In this document: positions 7,997-60,634 of the stretch, in pieces
Position numbering within the stretch: the first letter of the stretch is position 1
How the letters are laid out: each line of letters starts with the position of its first letter
Source of the DNA: a virus
DNA: 64,000 nucleotides
Virus record (IMG/VR): IMGVR_UViG_3300042900_000549
Coordinates: 1 to 64,000 of that record
Reading direction: 5' to 3' (one strand)
Translations under genes and position numbers: made by a program
The notes under the pieces: generated by a model
Told to the model about the DNA's origin: nothing
Database searches by the model: none
What the model saw: the letters and a program-made list of their open reading frames with translations, nothing else

Positions 7997-8536
7997 ATGA
8001 TTTCAACTGAAGTAATGGCAAAGAGAAAAAGGTCTGTTCATTATGTGAACAATAAAGAATTTTTAGAAGCACTCATTGTTTATAAAAAGAAATTAAGGGA
8101 CGCAGCAGAAAAAGAAATACCCAATATTACTGATGATGAATTAAAAAAATGGGTTAGTCCAAATAGACCTCCAATTCCAAATTATATTGGTGAATGTATT
8201 CTTAAAATTGCTACGCACCTATCCTTTAAACCTAATTTTGTAAATTATATGTTTAAAGATGACATGATTTCCGATGGCATCGAAAATTGCATTCAATATC
8301 TTCATAACTTTAATCCAGAGAAATCTCAAAATCCTTTTGCATACTTTACTCAAATTATTCACTTTGCATTTCTTCGTCGTATTCAAAAAGAAAAACGTCA
8401 ATTAGAAATCAAAAATAAAATTTTAGAAAGAACTGGGTTTGATGAAGTCTTTACAGATGATAATCATATTGACGGTACAAACTATTCGGATTATAATTCT
8501 ATTAAAGATAATGTACATATCCGAATGAATTCTTGA
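7997..8536 (+). CDS. g55: Late-transcription sigma factor gp55
   Basis: HYVNNKEFL, YIGECILKIATHLS, DMISDGIENC, NPFAYFTQI. Confidence 0.95.
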   Translation: MISTEVMAKRKRSVHYVNNKEFLEALIVYKKKLRDAAEKEIPNITDDELKKWVSPNRPPIPNYIGECILKIATHLSFKPNFVNYMFKDDMISDGIENCIQYLHNFNPEKSQNPFAYFTQIIHFAFLRRIQKEKRQLEIKNKILERTGFDEVFTDDNHIDGTNYSDYNSIKDNVHIRMNS

Positions 8537-13963: not shown

Positions 13964-14401
13964 ATGAAAACTTTTAAGCAGTTCATTCAAATATCTGATC
14001 AAATTGCAGAAAAAATTGATGGTAAATCTGCAAAAGATCCAGGATATTCTCTTAAGGATTGGTTTAAGGGTGGTGGATGGGTTCAGACTGGTGGTAAATA
14101 CGATGGAAAACCTTGTGCAAAACAACCAGGACAAACTACAAAACCATATTGTAGAGACCCGGATGATCGTGTATCCCTAGATAAAGATGAAAGAGAAAAG
14201 AGAGCAAAGAAAAAACGCAGGGAAGATCCAAATCCAAATAGAACAGGATCTGCAAAAATTGTAACTCAAGAGGAAGTAGGTGAAAAAGATAATTGTTATA
14301 AAAAAGTAAAATCCCGTTATCGTGTTTGGCCTTCGGCCTATGCTTCAGGGGCTCTTGTAAAATGTCGTAAAGTTGGTGCCGATAATTGGGGCAATAAATG
14401 A
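13964..14401 (+). CDS. Hypothetical protein, candidate internal head protein
   Basis: MKTFKQFIQ N-terminus, basic body, GATAAATA late-like motif upstream. Confidence 0.6.
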   Translation: MKTFKQFIQISDQIAEKIDGKSAKDPGYSLKDWFKGGGWVQTGGKYDGKPCAKQPGQTTKPYCRDPDDRVSLDKDEREKRAKKKRREDPNPNRTGSAKIVTQEEVGEKDNCYKKVKSRYRVWPSAYASGALVKCRKVGADNWGNK

Positions 14402-51992: not shown

Positions 51993-52086
51993 CAAATTCA
52001 AAATTCTGGTCTATCATAAATATGTTCTTAGAATCCCTTGTTGGAATTCTTAACACTTGTCCTTTAGTATAAAAACAAAAAACTTT

Positions 52087-53613
52087 ATGAAAATCGAACA
52101 ACTGATGCTTGCGCCCGTTGCTCTTGGTATGATTGCTCCCATTGCCGCAAATGCTGCAGAAATGAATCTTGTAGCAGTCAATCAATATGCCACCAGCGAT
52201 CAGGTTACAAGTGTCACACAGTTCTCTGATGTTCGTCCAAGTGATTGGGCATATCAGGCACTTTCAAATCTTGTAGAACAATACGGTTGCGTTGCTGGTT
52301 ATCCTAATGGCACCTTTAAAGGTGGTCAGGCAATGACCCGTTATGAGGCAGCAGCACTTCTGAATGCTTGCCTAGATCGTGTTACTGAAGTCACTGACGA
52401 ACTCAAGAAACTTCTGAATGAATTTCAGGGTGAACTTGCGATTCTTCGTGGTCGTGTAGATGGTCTAGAAGCAAAGGTGGGTGAACTGGAGGCAAATCAA
52501 TTCTCTACCACCACCAAACTTCGTGGTGATACTCGTTGGGTTCTTGGCGGTATTTCCTACGGTGGAGACAGTAAGGACAACTACAAGAATCTTCGTGAAT
52601 CTGTATCCTTTAATTATGATGTTCGTCTGAACTTTGATACTTCATTCACTGGTAAGGATCTACTTCGCACTCAACTTCGTGCTGGTAACTTTAGGGATAG
52701 TGCCTTTGGTGCCGCTCCTACGCCTCTTACCAAACTAGATGCTGGATTTGAAGAGAACATCGGTAATGCTGATGGTGGTGATGTAGTTGCGATTAATCGT
52801 CTCTACTACAAGTTCCCTGTTGGCAAAGAGTTTACTGTTGTTGGTGGTCCAGTAGTTCGTCAGGATGATCTGCTTGCTGTGTGGCCTTCTGTATACACCT
52901 CTGATAAGATCCTGAAGGTCTTCCAGTTTGCCGGTGCTCCAGGTGCCTACAATCAGATCCTGGGTGGCGGTGCTGGTGCTTATTGGAAGAGGGGTGGTTG
53001 GTCTGTCGGTGCCGCTTATGTTGCCGGTAATGCTGACCAAGGTAATAGTGCAACTGGTGGTATTGCTAACGGGAACTCTGCTGCTTCTAGCACAGTTCAA
53101 CTTGCATACACTGGAAAGAACTGGAACCTGACTGGTGCTTACAACTACTCCAACTATGGTGTAAGTAATGCTGGTACTTCTTTTGAAACCAGTCTTCTTC
53201 CTAATGCAACTACTGGTGGTCAGACTAACTCTGTCTCTCTTGCTGGTTATTGGCAACCCATTAAGTCTGGATGGGCACCTTCTGTTTCCGCTGGTTGGGG
53301 TTACAATGCAATCGGTTATAATGAAGGTGATGGTGTAACTTCTCAATCTTGGTACACTGGTCTGGTTTGGAAAGATGTGATTGCAAAGGGTAATGCTCTT
53401 GGTGTTGCAGTTGGTCAACCTACCTTTGTTACTAATGTCGATAATGGAAACGCTAATGATGGTCAGTATGCTCTTGAGGCATACTACAAGATGCAGGTAA
53501 CTGATAATATTTCAGTTACGCCAGCAATTTTCTATCTGTCTGCACCTCGTGGAGAGACTGATAAGAACCTGGATGCATTTGGTGCATTAGTGCAAACAAC
53601 TTTCCGTTTTTGA
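52087..53613 (+). CDS. Cyanobacterial Som-type outer-membrane porin with SLH domain
   Basis: FSDVRPSDWAYQALSNLVEQYGCVAGYPNGTF, TRYEAAALLNACL, QFSTTTKLRG, C-terminal TTFRF; promoter TTGACA-17-TATCAT at 51989-52017. Confidence 0.93.
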   Translation: MKIEQLMLAPVALGMIAPIAANAAEMNLVAVNQYATSDQVTSVTQFSDVRPSDWAYQALSNLVEQYGCVAGYPNGTFKGGQAMTRYEAAALLNACLDRVTEVTDELKKLLNEFQGELAILRGRVDGLEAKVGELEANQFSTTTKLRGDTRWVLGGISYGGDSKDNYKNLRESVSFNYDVRLNFDTSFTGKDLLRTQLRAGNFRDSAFGAAPTPLTKLDAGFEENIGNADGGDVVAINRLYYKFPVGKEFTVVGGPVVRQDDLLAVWPSVYTSDKILKVFQFAGAPGAYNQILGGGAGAYWKRGGWSVGAAYVAGNADQGNSATGGIANGNSAASSTVQLAYTGKNWNLTGAYNYSNYGVSNAGTSFETSLLPNATTGGQTNSVSLAGYWQPIKSGWAPSVSAGWGYNAIGYNEGDGVTSQSWYTGLVWKDVIAKGNALGVAVGQPTFVTNVDNGNANDGQYALEAYYKMQVTDNISVTPAIFYLSAPRGETDKNLDAFGALVQTTFRF

Positions 53614-53616
53614 GGT

Positions 53617-53724
53617 TATAAATAAAATCACCTGACTTGTTGGCGCTTTTCAGGTAAAGATTGGGGGGCAGTAATGCCCTCTTTTCTTGTATAAATAGTT
53701 TCGCCAACAAGTTAGAGAATAACA
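53617..53724 (+). promoter_or_regulatory. Tandem late promoters flanking a hairpin and terminator; hairpin loop complementary to downstream leader
   Basis: TATAAATA 53617; CTGACTTGTTGGCG 53632-45; GGGGGCA-GTAA-TGCCCTC-TTTT; TATAAATA 53690; CGCCAACAAGTTAG 53702-15. Confidence 0.7.
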
Positions 53725-54441
53725 ATGACTTCACAAAGTCCAAGAATTTACACATATAAAATCACATTTGAAGAAGTTCCTTATTATTACTATGGGGTTC
53801 ATAAGGAACAAGGATTTGATGAAGAGTATTGGGGAACTCCCGTAACAAACCGCTGGTGTTGGGAATTTTATACTCCAGAGAAACAAATATTGGAACTATT
53901 TGAATATAGTGATGAAGGTTGGATAGAAGCGCAAGAAGTTGAAAAAAGAATAATTAAACCAATCCTTAATAATAAATGGTGCCTTAATGAAAATTGTAAA
54001 GGGATAATTTCTATAGAAGGATGTAAAAAAGGTGGGAGGATTATGGGAAACTATCTTTATAAAAATGGATTAGGTATTCACGCATTAACAAAAGAACAGC
54101 AGATTGAAAATGGAAAGAAGGGAAATAAGGAGGGTAAAAGAAGAAGTGGAAAAAATGCATATCTTATGAAAACTGGAATTCACGCTTTTACTGCCGAAGA
54201 AAAAAAAGAACTTGGAAGAAAGAGTGGTCGTATTAATTTTGAGATGGGACTTGGAATTCATTCTTTAACCCCAGAGCAAAGAGTTGAAAATGGAAAAAAG
54301 GGTGGAAAAATTGCAGGAAGAATAGTTTCCTCTCAAAGATGGAGATGTTTAGTGACCGGATATATTGCTGCCGCTGGTCCGCTAGCATCTTATCAAAAAG
54401 CAAGAGGTATTGATAAGAGTTTAAGAGAAAGATTGTCTTAA
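53725..54441 (+). CDS. Free-standing GIY-YIG-like homing endonuclease with three GIH..KKGG repeats
   Basis: IYTYKIT...YYYG, YWG, EVEKRII, CLNEN; repeats GLGIHALTKEQ / KTGIHAFTAEE / GLGIHSLTPEQ. Confidence 0.65.
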   Translation: MTSQSPRIYTYKITFEEVPYYYYGVHKEQGFDEEYWGTPVTNRWCWEFYTPEKQILELFEYSDEGWIEAQEVEKRIIKPILNNKWCLNENCKGIISIEGCKKGGRIMGNYLYKNGLGIHALTKEQQIENGKKGNKEGKRRSGKNAYLMKTGIHAFTAEEKKELGRKSGRINFEMGLGIHSLTPEQRVENGKKGGKIAGRIVSSQRWRCLVTGYIAAAGPLASYQKARGIDKSLRERLS

Positions 54442-54481
54442 CCAAATCTTAGTTGACTCCAAACTTTATTTGCGATAGACT
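54437..54481 (+). promoter_or_regulatory. Putative Pho box plus sigma70 promoter for pstS
   Basis: CTTAACCA-AAT-CTTAGTTG (11-bp period) overlapping TTGACT-17-TAGACT. Confidence 0.55.
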
Positions 54482-54515
54482 GTTTATGAAGTTTATTTTA
54501 TCTTCAAAATTTTTT

Positions 54516-55484
54516 ATGAAAATTAAAAATCTATTTGCTATTGGTCTAATTGTTGCTACCCCGGTTGCGGCAATTGCGGGGACTACTCTAAACGGTGCGG
54601 GAGCCTCCTTTCCATTTTCCATCTACAGTAGATGGTTTAATGATTATGCACGAACTTCTGGGAATAGGGTTAATTATCAGTCCGTTGGTTCTGGTGCTGG
54701 TGTTCGTCAATTCATTGCGGGAACTGTTGATTTCGCAGCATCCGACGAACCAATCAAATCCTCCGAAGCCGCCAAAGTAAAGCGTGGAGTTGTTCAAATT
54801 CCAATGGTTGGAGGTACGATTGCAATTGCTTACAATAAACCCGGTTGTACTCTTAAACTGACTCAACAACAAACCGTAGATGTATTTCTCAGTAAGATTA
54901 ATGACTGGAAGCAACTCAAGTGTGCTCCCGGTAAAATCACTACAGTTCATCGTTCTGATGGTTCCGGCACTACATTCGCCTTCACTAACTCCCTAGAAGC
55001 ATTCTCATCCTCTTGGACCCCAGGTGTAGGCAAGAGTGTTAAATGGCCTGTAGGGGTTGGAGGAAAGGGTAATGAGGGTGTTTCGGGTATCATCAAGAAT
55101 ACTCCTGGTTCTCTTGGTTATGTCTCTTATTCCTTTGTGAAGTCTCAAAATCTTCAAGTAGCGCAACTTCAAAATAAATCTGGAAAGTTTGTTCCTCCAA
55201 ATGCATCAAGTGGTTCTGCTGCTCTAAATCAAATTAAACTGGATTCAAATCTTGCTGGAGAAAATCCAAACCCATCAGGTGTGAATTCTTATCCAATTTC
55301 AACCCTAACTTGGGTTCTTGCTTATAAGAATGGGAATGGTGCAAAGACTGATGAAATTCGTGGAGTTCTGAACTATGCTTTGGGTTCTAAAGCACAAATG
55401 ATTGCTGATGATTTGGGTTATGTTCCTTTGAGTGGTAGTGTTCTGAATAAGGCACGACTTGCAGTGAATCGTATCAGCAAGTGA
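54516..55484 (+). CDS. pstS: Phosphate-binding protein PstS
   Basis: GAGASFP, YQSVGSGAG, DFAASD, HRSDGSGTT, GKGNEGV, YPISTLTW. Confidence 0.96.
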   Translation: MKIKNLFAIGLIVATPVAAIAGTTLNGAGASFPFSIYSRWFNDYARTSGNRVNYQSVGSGAGVRQFIAGTVDFAASDEPIKSSEAAKVKRGVVQIPMVGGTIAIAYNKPGCTLKLTQQQTVDVFLSKINDWKQLKCAPGKITTVHRSDGSGTTFAFTNSLEAFSSSWTPGVGKSVKWPVGVGGKGNEGVSGIIKNTPGSLGYVSYSFVKSQNLQVAQLQNKSGKFVPPNASSGSAALNQIKLDSNLAGENPNPSGVNSYPISTLTWVLAYKNGNGAKTDEIRGVLNYALGSKAQMIADDLGYVPLSGSVLNKARLAVNRISK

Positions 55485-59836: not shown

Positions 59837-59861
59837 AGGAACTCTTCGGGGTTCCTTTTTT
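59837..59861 (+). terminator. psbA terminator
   Basis: AGGAACTC-TTCG-GGGTTCCT plus T run, followed by TATAAATA. Confidence 0.85.
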
Positions 59862-59899
59862 GTATAAATAACTATAGCACTAACTTTGGATTAGAAGTA

Positions 59900-60634
59900 A
59901 TGAAAAATGTATTTTACACTTATGCTTATTTGAGGGAGGATGGAACTCCTTATTATATTGGTAAGGGTAAAGGTAAAAGAGCATATGATAGAAAAAGGCA
60001 TAGTGCTTATGTCCCATCAAGAAATAGGATTTTAATATTAAAGAAAAATCTTACTGAAGATGAAGCATTTATTCACGAAATTTATATGATTTCAATCTTT
60101 GGTAGAAAAGATTTGGAAACTGGTATTCTTTATAATCTAACAGATGGTGGAGATGGACCTTCTGGATATGTTTATACAGAAGAACAAAGGAAAAAAATGG
60201 GAGATATGCGTAGAGGAAAGAAGAGACCAAGACAAAGTAAGATTATGAAGGAAAAAAATCATTTACAAATAGTGAATGAAAATAAAATAAACGAATTGAG
60301 AAAAAATTGTCCACCAGAAAAAATTGCTGAACTTTATATTGAGGGTAAAACTCTTAGAGAAATAAAATCAATTTTGGGATGTGGGATGGTTTGGATTAGA
60401 AAATCATTGGATGAAATGGAAGTTAAAATAAGACATAGAAACGACTATGGAAATCCTATGAACGACAAAGAAGTTAGAGATAAAATTTCTCAAAAAGCAA
60501 TAGAAAGAGGTGCTTGGTCTGGGGATAAAAATCCAAATTCAGGGGAAGGTATTTGTAGGGATAAAATAATACAAAGAACAAAAGAAGTAAATACTGGAAA
60601 ACAAAATTGGAAGTATAGGAAACCTAAAAACTAA
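59900..60634 (+). CDS. Free-standing GIY-YIG homing endonuclease with NUMOD3-like and HTH-like C-terminal regions
   Basis: [47 protein letters not shown]; late promoter 59863. Confidence 0.85.

What the first reader, a model, noticed from the sequence alone, without database searches (positions are those of the whole stretch)
53617..53724. Late promoter - short RNA - terminator - late promoter module whose RNA loop is antisense to the endonuclease leader
Seen: TATAAATA (53617), then hairpin ACCTGA-[CTTGTTGGCGCTTT]-TCAGGT, a GNRA-capped terminator (53663-53685), a second TATAAATA (53690), and a leader CGCCAACAAGTTAG (53702-15) that is complementary over 14 nt (one G.U) to 53632-45 and abuts the ribosome-binding region 9 nt before the ATG. 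Established: T4 homing endonucleases such as I-TevI are silenced by RBS-sequestering hairpins that a late promoter bypasses. Inference: here the anti-leader has its own promoter and terminator and is displayed in a loop, so it could be a discrete ~60-nt sRNA repressing the nuclease mRNA in trans (type I antitoxin-like), or an RNA partner of the nuclease. I do not know this architecture from described systems.
Basis: partly seen in the sequence, partly recalled or inferred. Interest (0 to 1): 0.75.

Follow-up and report, generated by a model that had tools for sequence, protein, structure and literature searches.

The report
Portable RNA control cassette of cyanophage homing nucleases
The described promoter-hairpin-terminator-promoter-leader unit is real and is one copy of a conserved, mobile RNA control cassette found in front of many different homing-endonuclease genes of freshwater T4-like cyanophages; whether it also makes a free small RNA remains untested.

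Summary
Observation confirmed. Every element sits at the stated coordinates. The 14-nt anti-leader at 53632-45 is the best non-self partner of the leader in the whole window.

It is one copy of a conserved module: late-promoter motif P1, hairpin, intrinsic terminator, late promoter P2, leader, ATG. I found 40 distinct copies in IMG/VR contigs plus 7 more in the cultured phages S-SRM01 (5 copies) and B3 (3).

- **Pairing:** the two arms differ between copies but stay complementary. Wobble pairs point to sense-strand RNA.
- **Genes served:** the module precedes nuclease genes with several unrelated N-terminal domains, GIY-YIG-like and HNH-like.
- **What is known:** a late promoter inside a leader-occluding helix is known from T4 and Aeh1, and was noted for cyanophage-like endonuclease genes in 2009.
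- **What I did not find described:** the enclosed terminator, the P1 motif (39 of 40), a hairpin starting at P1's predicted start site, and hypervariable, mutually orthogonal arms.

These features favour a trans-acting RNA of about 60 nt, but no RNA data exist. An overlapping window of this genome carries the same first-reader note.

The parts
53617..53624 (+). P1: T4-type late-promoter motif TATAAATA, 3 nt after the porin stop codon and followed by no ORF
   Evidence: The core TAAATA is kept in 39 of 40 distinct modules and in all 8 modules of S-SRM01 and B3. It is the only one of 8 plus-strand TATAAATA sites in the window without an ORF start 20-38 nt downstream. Promoter activity not tested.
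53630..53655 (+). Hairpin 1: stem ACCTGA/TCAGGT with a 14-nt loop. It starts at the predicted P1 start site (sixth nt after the motif; this spacing is recalled from T4).
   Evidence: An equivalent hairpin starts at -1..+3 of the predicted start in 40 of 40 modules, with 23 distinct outer stems.
53632..53645 (+). Anti-leader (5' arm): four stem bases plus ten loop bases, complementary to 53702-53715
   Evidence: Covariation shown.
53663..53689 (+). Intrinsic terminator: 8-bp stem, GTAA loop, then TTTCTTG. It lies inside the long-range helix and directly abuts P2.
   Evidence: The terminator helix covaries in homologues (7 of 7 pairs with changes on both sides in A4).
53630..53688 (+). Predicted short RNA of about 59 nt (hairpin 1 plus terminator), not observed experimentally
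   Evidence: Fold at -24.1 kcal/mol, z -3.7. Predicted lengths across the 40 modules are 51-68 nt, median 62. No RNA run was listed.
53690..53697 (+). P2: late-promoter motif TATAAATA, 27 nt before the ATG. The predicted mRNA start is near 53703.
   Evidence: TAAATA present in 40 of 40 modules, ending 24-30 nt before the ATG.
53702..53715 (+). Leader (3' arm), complementary to the anti-leader. It begins at about +1 of the P2 transcript and ends 9 nt before the ATG, overlapping the purine-rich AGAG.
53725..54441 (+). 238-aa modular homing-endonuclease-like gene. It has a GIY-YIG-like N-terminal domain (weak support), G-x-G-I-x-x-L-T repeats, and a conserved C-terminal domain W-x-C-x-x-T-G...Y-Q-K-A-R-G-I-D.
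   Evidence: phrog_314 'homing endonuclease' at E 0.041 for this protein and 3e-9 for family member L008. ESM Atlas points to GIY-YIG clusters, score 0.95. The C-terminal domain is shared with a Pfam-positive GIY-YIG protein. No Pfam or PDB hit for the protein itself.
52057..53613 (+). Upstream OprB/SLH porin-like gene. Its transcripts would run into hairpin 1 and the terminator.
   Evidence: In 16 of 18 related contigs the porin gene is followed by a different hairpin and terminator and no endonuclease gene.
8018..8446 (+). Homologue of the T4 gp55 late sigma factor. Context only: it makes TATAAATA-type late promoters plausible in this phage.
   Evidence: E 6.9e-18, 43% identity to T4 gp55.

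Best explanation
This is one copy of a conserved, mobile 5' control cassette that travels with free-standing homing-endonuclease genes of freshwater T4-like cyanophages.

Shown here:
- An anti-leader of 14-16 nt sits in and next to the loop of a small hairpin. It is complementary to the first 14-16 nt of the transcript that the inner late promoter P2 would make.
- This pairing is maintained by compensatory change in sense-strand RNA.

Inferred:
- The pairing keeps the nuclease mRNA poorly translatable. It buries positions -22 to about -8, including part of the purine-rich ribosome-binding region.
- Any transcript that carries both arms (read-through from the porin gene or from P1) is silenced in cis. 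This is the T4 I-TevI / Aeh1 mobE device.
- P1, hairpin 1 and the terminator form a small gene for an RNA of about 60 nt. Its loop seeds pairing with the 5' end of the P2 mRNA in trans, and pairing then opens the hairpin stem. This resembles IS10 RNA-OUT acting on RNA-IN (recalled, no paper read).
- Nuclease synthesis therefore stays low and specific to each cassette, even late in infection.
- The hypervariable arms would keep the several cassettes of one phage genome from cross-reacting.
For: Conservation:
- 27 of 30 assessable distinct upstream regions of N-terminally complete homologues carry the module.
- A covariance model finds 45 plus-strand hits at E<0.01. Of the 45 sequences analysed (44 of these hits plus L009 at E 0.035), 40 are distinct.
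- S-SRM01 has 5 copies and B3 has 3.

Pairing:
- Cognate arm/leader duplexes are -16.7 to -26.3 kcal/mol. Non-cognate means are about -10 to -15.
- On an alignment not fitted to structure, 15 pairs are 94.7% paired and 8 have changes on both sides. Slid controls give 38-47% paired, and 0 of 500 shuffles reach the covariation score.
- On the model-fitted alignment, 14 of 15 pairs are compensatory.
- Isolated mismatches inside the helices are 24 G.U-type against 6 A.C-type. This points to sense-strand RNA.

Cis mode:
- The long-range helix is in the minimum-energy fold of the read-through RNA in 39 of 40 modules.
- Median unpaired probability of -16..+3 is 0.42 in the read-through RNA against 0.64 in the P2 mRNA.

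Short RNA and trans mode:
- P1's TAAATA is present in 39 of 40 modules while its flanks vary.
- P1 comes with the cassette. 16 endonuclease-free porin loci lack the module, and only 1 of them has TAAATA near the stop codon.
- In this window, 7 of 8 plus-strand TATAAATA sites precede ORF starts. P1 alone precedes only a hairpin and a terminator.
- Hairpin 1 starts at -1..+3 of the predicted start in 40 of 40 modules and is followed at once by the terminator.
- Helix positions 0-10, mostly loop-side bases, are largely Watson-Crick. Position 11 and beyond carry most of the wobbles and mismatches.
- The arm core differs between modules (p-distance 0.62) more than third codon positions of the adjacent gene (0.41) and much more than the P2 region (0.16). 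It shows no correlation with coding divergence (r 0.02).
- Modules that share a genome are orthogonal: cognate duplexes are -19 to -26 kcal/mol and non-cognate -5 to -15.5.

Late transcription:
- The genome has a gp55 homologue.
- A review reports NATAAATA as the cyanomyovirus late-promoter motif (PMC2984593, passages read).
Against: - No RNA evidence of any kind. Neither the start sites, nor the RNA of about 60 nt, nor repression has been observed.
- P1 is less consensus-like than P2. It reads TATAAATA in 8 of 39 modules, against 28 of 40 for P2.
- P1 and P2 are the same promoter class, so a trans RNA adds no obvious timing logic.
- The helix stops 7-9 nt before the AUG, which stays unpaired. 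Repression is therefore assumed, not demonstrated. The review notes that a similar non-sequestering hairpin in Aeromonas phage 25 has unproven effect (PMC2988022).
- Hairpin 1 is only moderately stable (-3 to -10 kcal/mol, median z -1.75).
- The cis device alone explains the helix, P2 and the terminator.
- Sequences in the counts are related, so the shuffle and binomial figures overstate independence.
- The start-site spacing and the IS10 analogy are recalled, not read.
Confidence: 0.5

Rival explanations
1. Cis-only device of the T4 / Aeh1 type. The terminator stops most transcription coming from the upstream gene. Any read-through RNA is translationally silenced by the long-range helix. Only P2 late transcripts, which lack the 5' arm, are translated. 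P1 and hairpin 1 are accessory: for example a weak or inactive promoter motif, a 3'-end stabiliser for the upstream mRNA, or a co-transcriptional folding intermediate.
For: - It matches documented systems: I-TevI/II/III, segB and Aeh1 mobE, with terminators in T4 mobE and segF (PMC2988022, passages read).
- It matches the 5'UTR hairpins enclosing TATAAATA reported for 10 of the hairpins found in 15 of 16 endonuclease 5' UTRs from cyanophage-like metagenomic loci (PMC2677866, section 14 read).
- The long-range helix is in the minimum-energy fold of the read-through RNA in 39 of 40 modules.
- The pair at helix position 0, one nt before the predicted P2 start, also covaries. This fits pairing on a longer transcript.
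Against: It does not explain:
- why TAAATA is kept at a fixed distance before the hairpin in 39 of 40 modules and arrives with the cassette;
- why hairpin 1 is kept in 40 of 40 modules with 23 different outer stems;
- why the arms diverge faster than adjacent third codon positions and are orthogonal within a genome.

A strong terminator inside the helix also leaves few transcripts on which a cis helix could act.
Confidence: 0.33
2. The helix is not a translational repressor. It would instead be a processing or stability element, or part of transcriptional insulation. The 14-16-bp duplex enclosing the terminator could be a double-strand RNase site. It could be a 5' stabiliser of P1 read-through mRNA. 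Or polymerases from P1 stalling at a terminator that abuts P2 could interfere with P2.
For: - The AUG and the last 7-9 nt of the leader stay unpaired in the helix form.
- The terminator's T-run ends 1-3 nt before P2 in many modules, including this window.
- Transcript processing of endonuclease mRNAs by RNase E is documented in T4 and Aeh1 (PMC2988022, passages read).
Against: - The terminator-to-P2 spacing is not fixed. About 20-25 extra nt separate them in L014, L016, L019, L023, L024 and L030.
- A duplex of 14-16 bp is short for a typical double-strand RNase substrate (recalled).
- No data were obtained on processing.
Confidence: 0.08
3. DNA-level reading. The two arms are inverted copies of an operator bound by the nuclease's DNA-binding domain downstream of both late promoters. 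This would be autorepression as in I-TevI, and the arm sequence would track each enzyme's target specificity.
For: - I-TevI binds an operator that overlaps its late promoter and resembles its homing site (PMC2988022, passages read).
- The arms are cassette-specific and lie directly downstream of both promoter motifs.
Against: - Mismatches inside the helices are 24 G.U-type against 6 A.C-type. A G.U at helix position 11 recurs in many modules. This is the signature of RNA pairing on the sense strand, not of two DNA sites.
- Modules with identical arms precede nucleases with different N-terminal domains. Examples are S-SRM01 55959 against L037, and L052 against L042.
- Proteins with near-identical C-terminal domains have unrelated arms.
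Confidence: 0.04
4. The short RNA is a physical partner or guide of the nuclease.
For: A variable segment in a conserved scaffold next to a nuclease gene superficially resembles guide-RNA loci.
Against: - The variable segment matches the cassette's own leader, not a foreign target.
- The same module precedes GIY-YIG-like and HNH-like nucleases, and one protein with no nuclease-like N-terminal domain by eye (L039).
Confidence: 0.02

Closest known systems
Late promoter inside an RBS-occluding hairpin: T4 I-TevI, I-TevII, I-TevIII and segB; Aeromonas phage Aeh1 mobE (review PMC2988022, passages read)
   Same: - A homing-endonuclease gene of a T4-like phage.
- A TATAAATA late promoter placed between the two arms of an RNA helix.
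- Longer transcripts are occluded at the ribosome-binding region, and late transcripts lack the 5' arm.
- Terminators also limit endonuclease transcripts in T4 mobE and segF.
   Different: - The arms are 56 nt apart in this window, and the helix encloses a complete intrinsic terminator.
- A second conserved late-promoter motif and a local hairpin precede the helix.
- The helix stops 7-9 nt before the AUG.
- The arms are hypervariable.
- One module type serves several nuclease families.
- T4 itself gives no significant match to the module model (best E 0.25).
5'UTR hairpins of free-standing endonuclease genes in 'fractured gene' loci of cyanophage-like metagenomic DNA (Dassa et al. 2009, PMC2677866, sections 13-14 read)
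   Same: - Endonuclease genes of cyanophage-like DNA, many from a freshwater lake.
- A hairpin upstream of the start codon in 15 of 16 5' UTRs; ten of these hairpins contain TATAAATA.
- Two conserved motifs that pair on the stem.
[quoted passage not shown]
- This may be the same element or a relative.
   Different: - It is described only as a cis translational hairpin.
- The word 'terminator' occurs 0 times in that paper's text.
- The sections I read mention no upstream promoter, short RNA, covariation or arm diversity.
- Its Figure 4 and Supplementary Figure S4 could not be seen, so identity of the elements is untested.
IS10 RNA-OUT / RNA-IN antisense control of transposase (recalled, no paper read)
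   Same: - A selfish element limits synthesis of its own DNA-cutting enzyme.
- The loop of a small stem-loop RNA pairs with the extreme 5' end of the enzyme mRNA. Pairing runs down one side of the stem and covers the ribosome-binding region.
   Different: - RNA-OUT is transcribed from the opposite strand and overlaps its target.
- Here both RNAs would come from the same strand, in tandem, and the complementarity is an inverted repeat.
- No experimental evidence exists here.
CfrI antisense RNA of cyanophage S-PM2 (PMC2984593 and PMC12197685, passages read; annotated in NC_006820)
   Same: A non-coding RNA of a T4-like cyanophage, physically linked to a homing-endonuclease gene (F-CphI).
   Different: - CfrI is about 225 nt long. 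It lies on the opposite strand and overlaps psbA and F-CphI.
- S-PM2 has no copy of the module described here (0 matches at E<=1).
Type I toxin-antitoxin systems (recalled)
   Same: A small RNA would block translation of a potentially harmful protein encoded next to it.
   Different: - The target is a 238-aa modular nuclease, not a small membrane toxin.
- The RNAs do not overlap.
- Both promoters are the same late class.
- Nothing suggests addiction logic.

Membership tests
T4/Aeh1-type translational control of homing endonuclease genes (late promoter within an occluding hairpin) | A late promoter (TATAAATA) lies between the two helix arms, so the late transcript lacks the 5' arm | tested here: met
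   P2 at 53690-97 lies between the arms 53632-45 and 53702-15. P2 is present in 40 of 40 modules.
T4/Aeh1-type translational control of homing endonuclease genes (late promoter within an occluding hairpin) | The helix sequesters the Shine-Dalgarno sequence and/or the start codon on longer transcripts | tested here: inconclusive
   The helix covers -23 to -10 (window) and reaches -9..-7 in others. It overlaps only half of the AGAG, and the AUG is free. Median unpaired probability of -16..+3 is 0.42 in the read-through RNA against 0.64 in the P2 mRNA.
T4/Aeh1-type translational control of homing endonuclease genes (late promoter within an occluding hairpin) | The phage has a gp55-type late sigma factor | tested here: met
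   gp55 homologue at window 8018-8446, E 6.9e-18.
T4/Aeh1-type translational control of homing endonuclease genes (late promoter within an occluding hairpin) | Longer (early or middle) transcripts reach the gene and are not translated | not testable with these tools
   No RNA run was listed. Here a predicted strong terminator lies inside the helix, unlike the T4 cases.
Trans-acting base-pairing small RNA (antisense-like repressor) | Own promoter | tested here: inconclusive
   The motif is conserved in 39 of 40 modules, arrives with the cassette, and is the only ORF-less TATAAATA on the plus strand. Activity was not measured.
Trans-acting base-pairing small RNA (antisense-like repressor) | Own intrinsic terminator giving a discrete short transcript | tested here: met
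   Met by prediction only: and 40 of 40 modules with predicted lengths of 51-68 nt.
Trans-acting base-pairing small RNA (antisense-like repressor) | A discrete RNA is detected in infected cells | not testable with these tools
   No RNA holder was listed, so no reads could be laid.
Trans-acting base-pairing small RNA (antisense-like repressor) | An exposed seed is complementary to the target's translation-initiation region, and the pairing is conserved | tested here: met
Type I toxin-antitoxin | The antisense RNA overlaps the mRNA of a small toxic peptide | tested here: not met
   Same strand, no overlap, and a 238-aa modular nuclease as target.
GIY-YIG homing endonuclease (for the ORF 53725-54441) | A match to a GIY-YIG domain model | tested here: not met
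   No Pfam family at E<=0.01. 1 of 23 family members matches PF01541, at E 0.95 only. The family profile has no PDB match. hhalign to a Pfam-positive GIY-YIG relative aligns only the C-terminal domain.
GIY-YIG homing endonuclease (for the ORF 53725-54441) | Weaker family signals and the motif pattern (GIY ... YIG ... Arg ... Glu ... Asn) | tested here: inconclusive
   phrog_314 'homing endonuclease' at E 0.041 for the window protein and 3.2e-9 for member L008. ESM Atlas gives GIY-YIG clusters at 0.95. By eye, the alignment has I-Y-x-Y-K-I ... Y-Y-Y-Y-G ... E73 ... N88, but no conserved Arg after the second motif. The residue roles are recalled from I-TevI.
Modular free-standing homing endonucleases sharing the C-terminal W-x-C-x-x-T-G...Y-Q-K-A-R-G-I-D domain | The same C-terminal domain is fused to recognised nuclease domains in relatives | tested here: met
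   L059 has Pfam GIY-YIG at 24.0 bits (cut-off 22.6) and phrog_314 at 1e-24. L041 matches phrog_655 'homing endonuclease' and has H-N-H-like motifs by eye. hhalign gives 99.3% probability on the C-terminal domain.
Any Rfam family | A match to a curated covariance model | tested here: not met
   No match within the module 53617-53727. Elsewhere in window 53000-54600 there are only two chance-level matches (E 0.86 and 0.98).

The most novel reading that the evidence does not exclude
Each homing-endonuclease cassette of these cyanophages encodes its own private anti-leader small RNA of about 60 nt. A late promoter drives it and a terminator bounds it. Its hypervariable loop seed pairs with the extreme 5' end of the cognate nuclease mRNA and represses it in trans. 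The seeds diversify under selection, so the several selfish cassettes that share one phage genome (five in S-SRM01) stay mutually orthogonal. This would be an RNA-OUT-like control system with incompatibility-group-like specificity, carried by homing endonuclease genes and exchanged between nuclease families.
Probability: 0.42. Interest if true: 0.8.

Novelty: new variant of a known kind. Interest (0 to 1): 0.66.

Why it matters
Homing endonuclease genes are selfish elements that must be expressed enough to spread without harming their phage. Their control has been worked out almost only in T4 and Aeh1.

This element shows that freshwater cyanophages use a single portable RNA cassette for many unrelated nucleases. 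The cassette keeps a conserved scaffold, and its complementary arms evolve quickly.

If the short RNA is real, it would be a trans-acting RNA regulator of a homing endonuclease; my searches of the held library turned up no such case. It would also provide a natural set of orthogonal RNA repressor/leader pairs.

The question is directly testable, because two cultured phages carry several copies: S-SRM01 has five and B3 has three.

Tried and rejected
- **RNA evidence:** The look-up of sequencing runs (kind rna) listed no RNA holder for 53300-54500.
- **Protein family of the window ORF:**
  - Pfam gave nothing at E<=0.01. Scanning 23 family members gave only scattered weak hits.
  - The family profile had 0 PDB matches at E<=10.
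  - hhalign against the Pfam-positive GIY-YIG relative L059 aligned only the C-terminal domain.
- **F-CphI:** I first recalled that the S-PM2 match was F-CphI. The annotation shows it is the neighbouring ORF S-PM2p181, so that idea was dropped.
- **Rfam:** nothing within the module; only two chance-level matches (E 0.86 and 0.98) elsewhere in 53000-54600.
- **A purely trans example:** the second endonuclease gene of the window (59900-60634) has a terminator and TATAAATA but no adjacent anti-leader. The best partner of its leader elsewhere in the window (-17.8 kcal/mol, near 14361) lies inside an ORF, not in a promoter-hairpin-terminator unit. I treat it as chance.
- **Module in model phages:**
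  - S-PM2 gave 0 matches. T4 gave only E 0.25 and 0.41.
  - blastn with a consensus-like module found only S-SRM01 among 50,697 phage records.
  - The window's own genome has a single copy.
- **Column-wise pair counts for hairpin 1:** the MAFFT alignments A2 and A5 do not keep the 3' strand of hairpin 1 in register between subgroups. Only the 14-sequence subgroup A3 was counted (82% paired, 2 of 11 pairs with changes on both sides). The rest rests on per-sequence folds, which pair by construction.
- **Rows left out:**
  - L029 and L031 had no in-frame start found.
  - L005 is cut 37 nt upstream of the ATG.
  - L027/L028, L032 and L034-L036 lack the module.
  - The hit L013:3344-3437 is cut by the contig end and was left out.
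  - A4 includes weak and minus-strand hits up to E 1.
- **Literature:**
  - Searches, and passages read, turned up no description of a P1-hairpin-terminator-P2 unit or of a trans RNA controlling a homing endonuclease.
  - The library lacks most subscription journals. Gibb & Edgell 2007/2009, Millard 2010 and Zeng 2009 were seen only as citations.
Full report
**1. The observation**

- TATAAATA at 53617-24, which I call P1.
- A hairpin ACCTGA/TCAGGT at 53630-55 with a 14-nt loop.
- A terminator stem-loop at 53663-82 (8 pairs, GTAA loop), followed by TTTCTTG.
- A second TATAAATA at 53690-97, which I call P2.
- A leader at 53702-15 that pairs with 53632-45 through 13 Watson-Crick pairs and one G.U. 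It ends 9 nt before the ATG of a 238-aa ORF (53725-54441).

The complementarity is more than chance:
- The leader was scanned against 12,792 windows on both strands. Apart from its own antisense strand, the best partner is this site (z -7.5).
- The 59-nt P1-to-terminator RNA folds at z -3.7. The 125-nt read-through RNA folds at z -5.7 with the long-range helix in its minimum-energy structure. No shuffle out of 200 does as well in either case.

Motif counts alone are not enriched. TATAAATA occurs 9 times against 8.0 expected. Placement is informative, however. Seven of the eight plus-strand copies lie 20-38 nt before an ORF start, and P1 is the exception.

**2. Context**

The window is part of an 83.7-kb IMG/VR record of a T4-like cyanophage.
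- An OprB/SLH porin-like gene lies upstream, and a PstS-like gene downstream.
- The genome has a gp55 late-sigma homologue at 8018-8446.
- The nearest named relative at this locus is Synechococcus phage S-SRM01, family Kyanoviridae, from a freshwater reservoir.
- A review reports NATAAATA as the cyanomyovirus late-promoter motif and says g55, g33 and g45 are present in these phages (PMC2984593, passages read).

**3. The ORF**

It has no Pfam hit and no PDB hit by profile.

Evidence that it is a homing endonuclease:
- phrog_314 'homing endonuclease' matches at E 0.041 for this protein and at 3.2e-9 for family member L008.
- ESM Atlas features of residues 1-100 point to GIY-YIG clusters, score 0.95 (a lead only).
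- The alignment of 23 members shows three parts: a conserved N-terminal domain with a GIY-YIG-like motif pattern by eye, a variable number of short repeats, and a conserved C-terminal domain.
- That C-terminal domain is fused in relatives to a Pfam-positive GIY-YIG domain (L059, 24.0 bits against a cut-off of 22.6). It is also fused to an HNH-like domain (L041, phrog_655) and to other GIY-YIG-like domains.

The C-terminal third also matches S-PM2p181, the ORF next to F-CphI, and not F-CphI itself. I file the protein as a modular homing-endonuclease-like protein. Its GIY-YIG membership is unproven.

**4. The module is conserved**

- A protein-based search of IMG/VR gave 61 loci.
- Of 31 distinct upstream regions of N-terminally complete homologues, one is cut by a contig end. 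Of the other 30, 27 carry the same layout: N-N-TAAATA, about 5 nt, hairpin, G+C-rich terminator with T-run, (T/C)-TAAATA, 5 nt, the 3' arm, a purine-rich block, then ATG.
- S-SRM01 has the same layout with entirely different arm sequences.
- A covariance model built from 14 of these sequences found 45 plus-strand hits at E<0.01 in the held DNA. I analysed 44 of them plus L009, and 40 of the 45 sequences are distinct.
- The model found 5 copies in the S-SRM01 genome and 3 in phage B3.
- It found 1 copy in the window's own genome, none in S-PM2, and nothing significant in T4.

**5. The pairing is selected and acts in RNA**

- Cognate anti-leader/leader duplexes are -16.7 to -26.3 kcal/mol. Non-cognate combinations average about -10 to -15.
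- On the MAFFT alignment A3, which is not fitted to any structure, the 15 long-range pairs are 94.7% paired and 8 show changes on both sides. Slid controls are 38-47% paired, and 0 of 500 shuffles reach the covariation score.
- On the model-fitted alignment A4, 14 of 15 pairs show compensatory change. That alignment leans towards the structure and includes weak hits.
- In a gapless comparison anchored on P2, helix positions 3-9 each use three or more Watson-Crick pair types.
- Isolated mismatches inside the helices of 47 modules are 24 G.U-type against 6 A.C-type. A G.U recurs at helix position 11. The modules are related, so the binomial p of 0.0014 overstates independence. The direction of the bias is still what sense-strand RNA pairing predicts, and two DNA sites would not give it.

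**6. What the helix would do in cis**

- In 39 of 40 modules the minimum-energy fold of an RNA running from the predicted P1 start to +30 contains the long-range helix wrapped around the terminator hairpin.
- The P2 transcript alone is nearly unstructured.
- Median unpaired probability of -16..+3 is 0.42 in the read-through RNA and 0.64 in the P2 transcript.
- The helix ends 7-9 nt before the AUG, so occlusion is partial.

This is the arrangement described for T4 I-TevI, I-TevII, I-TevIII, segB and Aeh1 mobE (PMC2988022, passages read). Dassa et al. reported hairpins in 15 of 16 endonuclease 5' UTRs from cyanophage-like metagenomic loci. Ten of those hairpins enclose TATAAATA, and two conserved motifs pair on the stem (PMC2677866, sections 13-14 read). 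The cis device is therefore a known kind, and their element may be the same one. Their text never uses the word 'terminator'. I could not see their figure or supplement.

**7. Features the cis device does not explain**

(a) P1.
- Its TAAATA core is present in 39 of 40 distinct modules, in all 8 copies in the cultured phages, and in 26 of the 27 modules found by protein homology alone. Meanwhile the flanking bases vary.
- It arrives with the cassette. Of 18 related contigs carrying the porin gene, 16 have no endonuclease gene and no module after it. Only one of those 16 has TAAATA near the stop codon. One contig is cut. One (L076) has an endonuclease gene with a complete module.

(b) Hairpin 1.
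- It starts at -1..+3 of the start site predicted from T4 spacing (sixth nt after the motif; recalled) in 40 of 40 modules.
- It has 23 different outer stems and is followed at once by the terminator. The predicted RNA is 51-68 nt, median 62.

(c) Seed geometry.
- Helix positions 0-10, mostly the loop side of the anti-leader, are largely Watson-Crick. Most wobbles and mismatches fall at position 11 and beyond, towards the stem side.
- The complementarity begins at about +1 of the P2 transcript. A free mRNA 5' end would therefore meet an exposed loop.

(d) Arm diversity.
- The arm core differs between modules (mean p-distance 0.62) more than third codon positions of the adjacent gene (0.41), and far more than the P2 region (0.16).
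- It shows no correlation with coding divergence (r 0.02). The arm is the more divergent of the two in 298 of 351 pairs.
- Modules that share a genome are orthogonal. Cognate duplexes are -19 to -26 kcal/mol and non-cognate -5 to -15.5.

A stem constrained only to pair should evolve more slowly than neutral sites. This pattern looks like a specificity determinant. Third codon positions are an imperfect neutral reference, and the start of the gene is unusually conserved at the DNA level, so this argument is suggestive only.

**8. The cassette is portable**

The same module precedes genes with the following N-terminal types:
- The window's N-terminal domain.
- Two other GIY-YIG-like domain types.
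- A Pfam-positive GIY-YIG domain.
- HNH-like domains: one type in L029, L041 and L044, and two more in S-SRM01.
- One protein with no nuclease-like N-terminal domain by eye (L039).

Modules with identical arms sit before different N-terminal domains, for example S-SRM01 55959 and L037, or L052 and L042. This argues against an RNA partner of one particular nuclease. It also argues against arms acting as protein-specific operators.

**9. Reading and odds**

- The anti-leader/leader pairing is real, and I take it to be a negative control on nuclease synthesis.
- I favour (0.5) a dual mode. Read-through RNA is silenced in cis, and a P1-driven terminated RNA of about 60 nt acts in trans on the P2 mRNA.
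- The cis-only reading is the main rival (0.33).
- Processing, stability or interference roles (0.08), a DNA operator (0.04) and a nuclease-bound RNA (0.02) are less likely.
- Nothing here shows that any of these RNAs exists. No RNA run was listed.

**10. Novelty**

- Rfam has no match within the module.
- Six literature searches and the passages read found no description of the enclosed terminator, the outer promoter, the short RNA or the arm diversity. The library is incomplete and supplements are closed.
- I rate the finding a new variant of a known kind. If the trans RNA is confirmed, it would be a distinct and more novel control system.

An earlier first-reader note from an overlapping window of the same genome (e1-6126559) describes the same place and gives the same reading. 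It is not independent evidence.

Noticed in passing
window 59839-60634: A second free-standing endonuclease gene (ATG at 59900; GIY-YIG-like N-terminus; phrog_314 at 1.7e-9) follows the psbA region. It has a terminator and TATAAATA (59863) but no adjacent anti-leader. The module model matches only its terminator-plus-promoter part (21.4 bits, E 0.51).
   Followed up: partly
window 53725-53750 and the homologous loci: The first eight or nine codons are nearly identical at the DNA level across many otherwise diverged homologues. They form a 5-bp hairpin directly after the AUG (53727-53741 in the fold). This may be a further translation-control or recombination element.
   Followed up: no
L066-L082 (contigs related to the porin gene): In most relatives the porin gene is followed by a small hairpin, a terminator and an early-type promoter for an hli-like gene. 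Relative to them, both the endonuclease gene and pstS at 53725-55484 of the window look like insertions.
   Followed up: partly
S-PM2 NC_006820 137109-137738 (L064): The hypothetical ORF S-PM2p181, directly downstream of F-CphI and overlapping it by 4 nt, shares the C-terminal domain of the window's endonuclease-like protein (42% identity over residues 148-237, E 1e-10). It may be a DNA-binding module associated with F-CphI.
   Followed up: no
L029:1449-1541: A decayed module lies in front of an N-terminally truncated homologue. P1 and hairpin 1 are present, the terminator is degenerate, and there is no P2. A second, intact module with an HNH-type gene lies about 1.5 kb downstream.
   Followed up: no
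L020, L021, L040: One or two tandem copies of a 10-nt unit that resembles the promoter but has a changed core lie between the terminator and P2. These look like promoter-like decoys or duplication scars.
   Followed up: no
L004:1400-1503: This is the only module without the P1 motif. It also has the weakest arm/leader pairing (-16.7 kcal/mol, two G.A mismatches). Its leader is identical to that of S-SRM01 and L037, while its hairpin is of another type, which suggests a recombinant.
   Followed up: no
L033:1340-1405; L071 after the porin stop: tRNA-like sequences lie directly upstream of one module (L033) and directly after the porin terminator in L071. I judged them by eye and did not run them through the tRNA finder.
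   Followed up: no
window 14361-14380: The leader of the second endonuclease gene has a 16-bp imperfect complement (-17.8 kcal/mol, z -5.1) inside the ORF 13964-14401. I judged this to be chance.
   Followed up: partly
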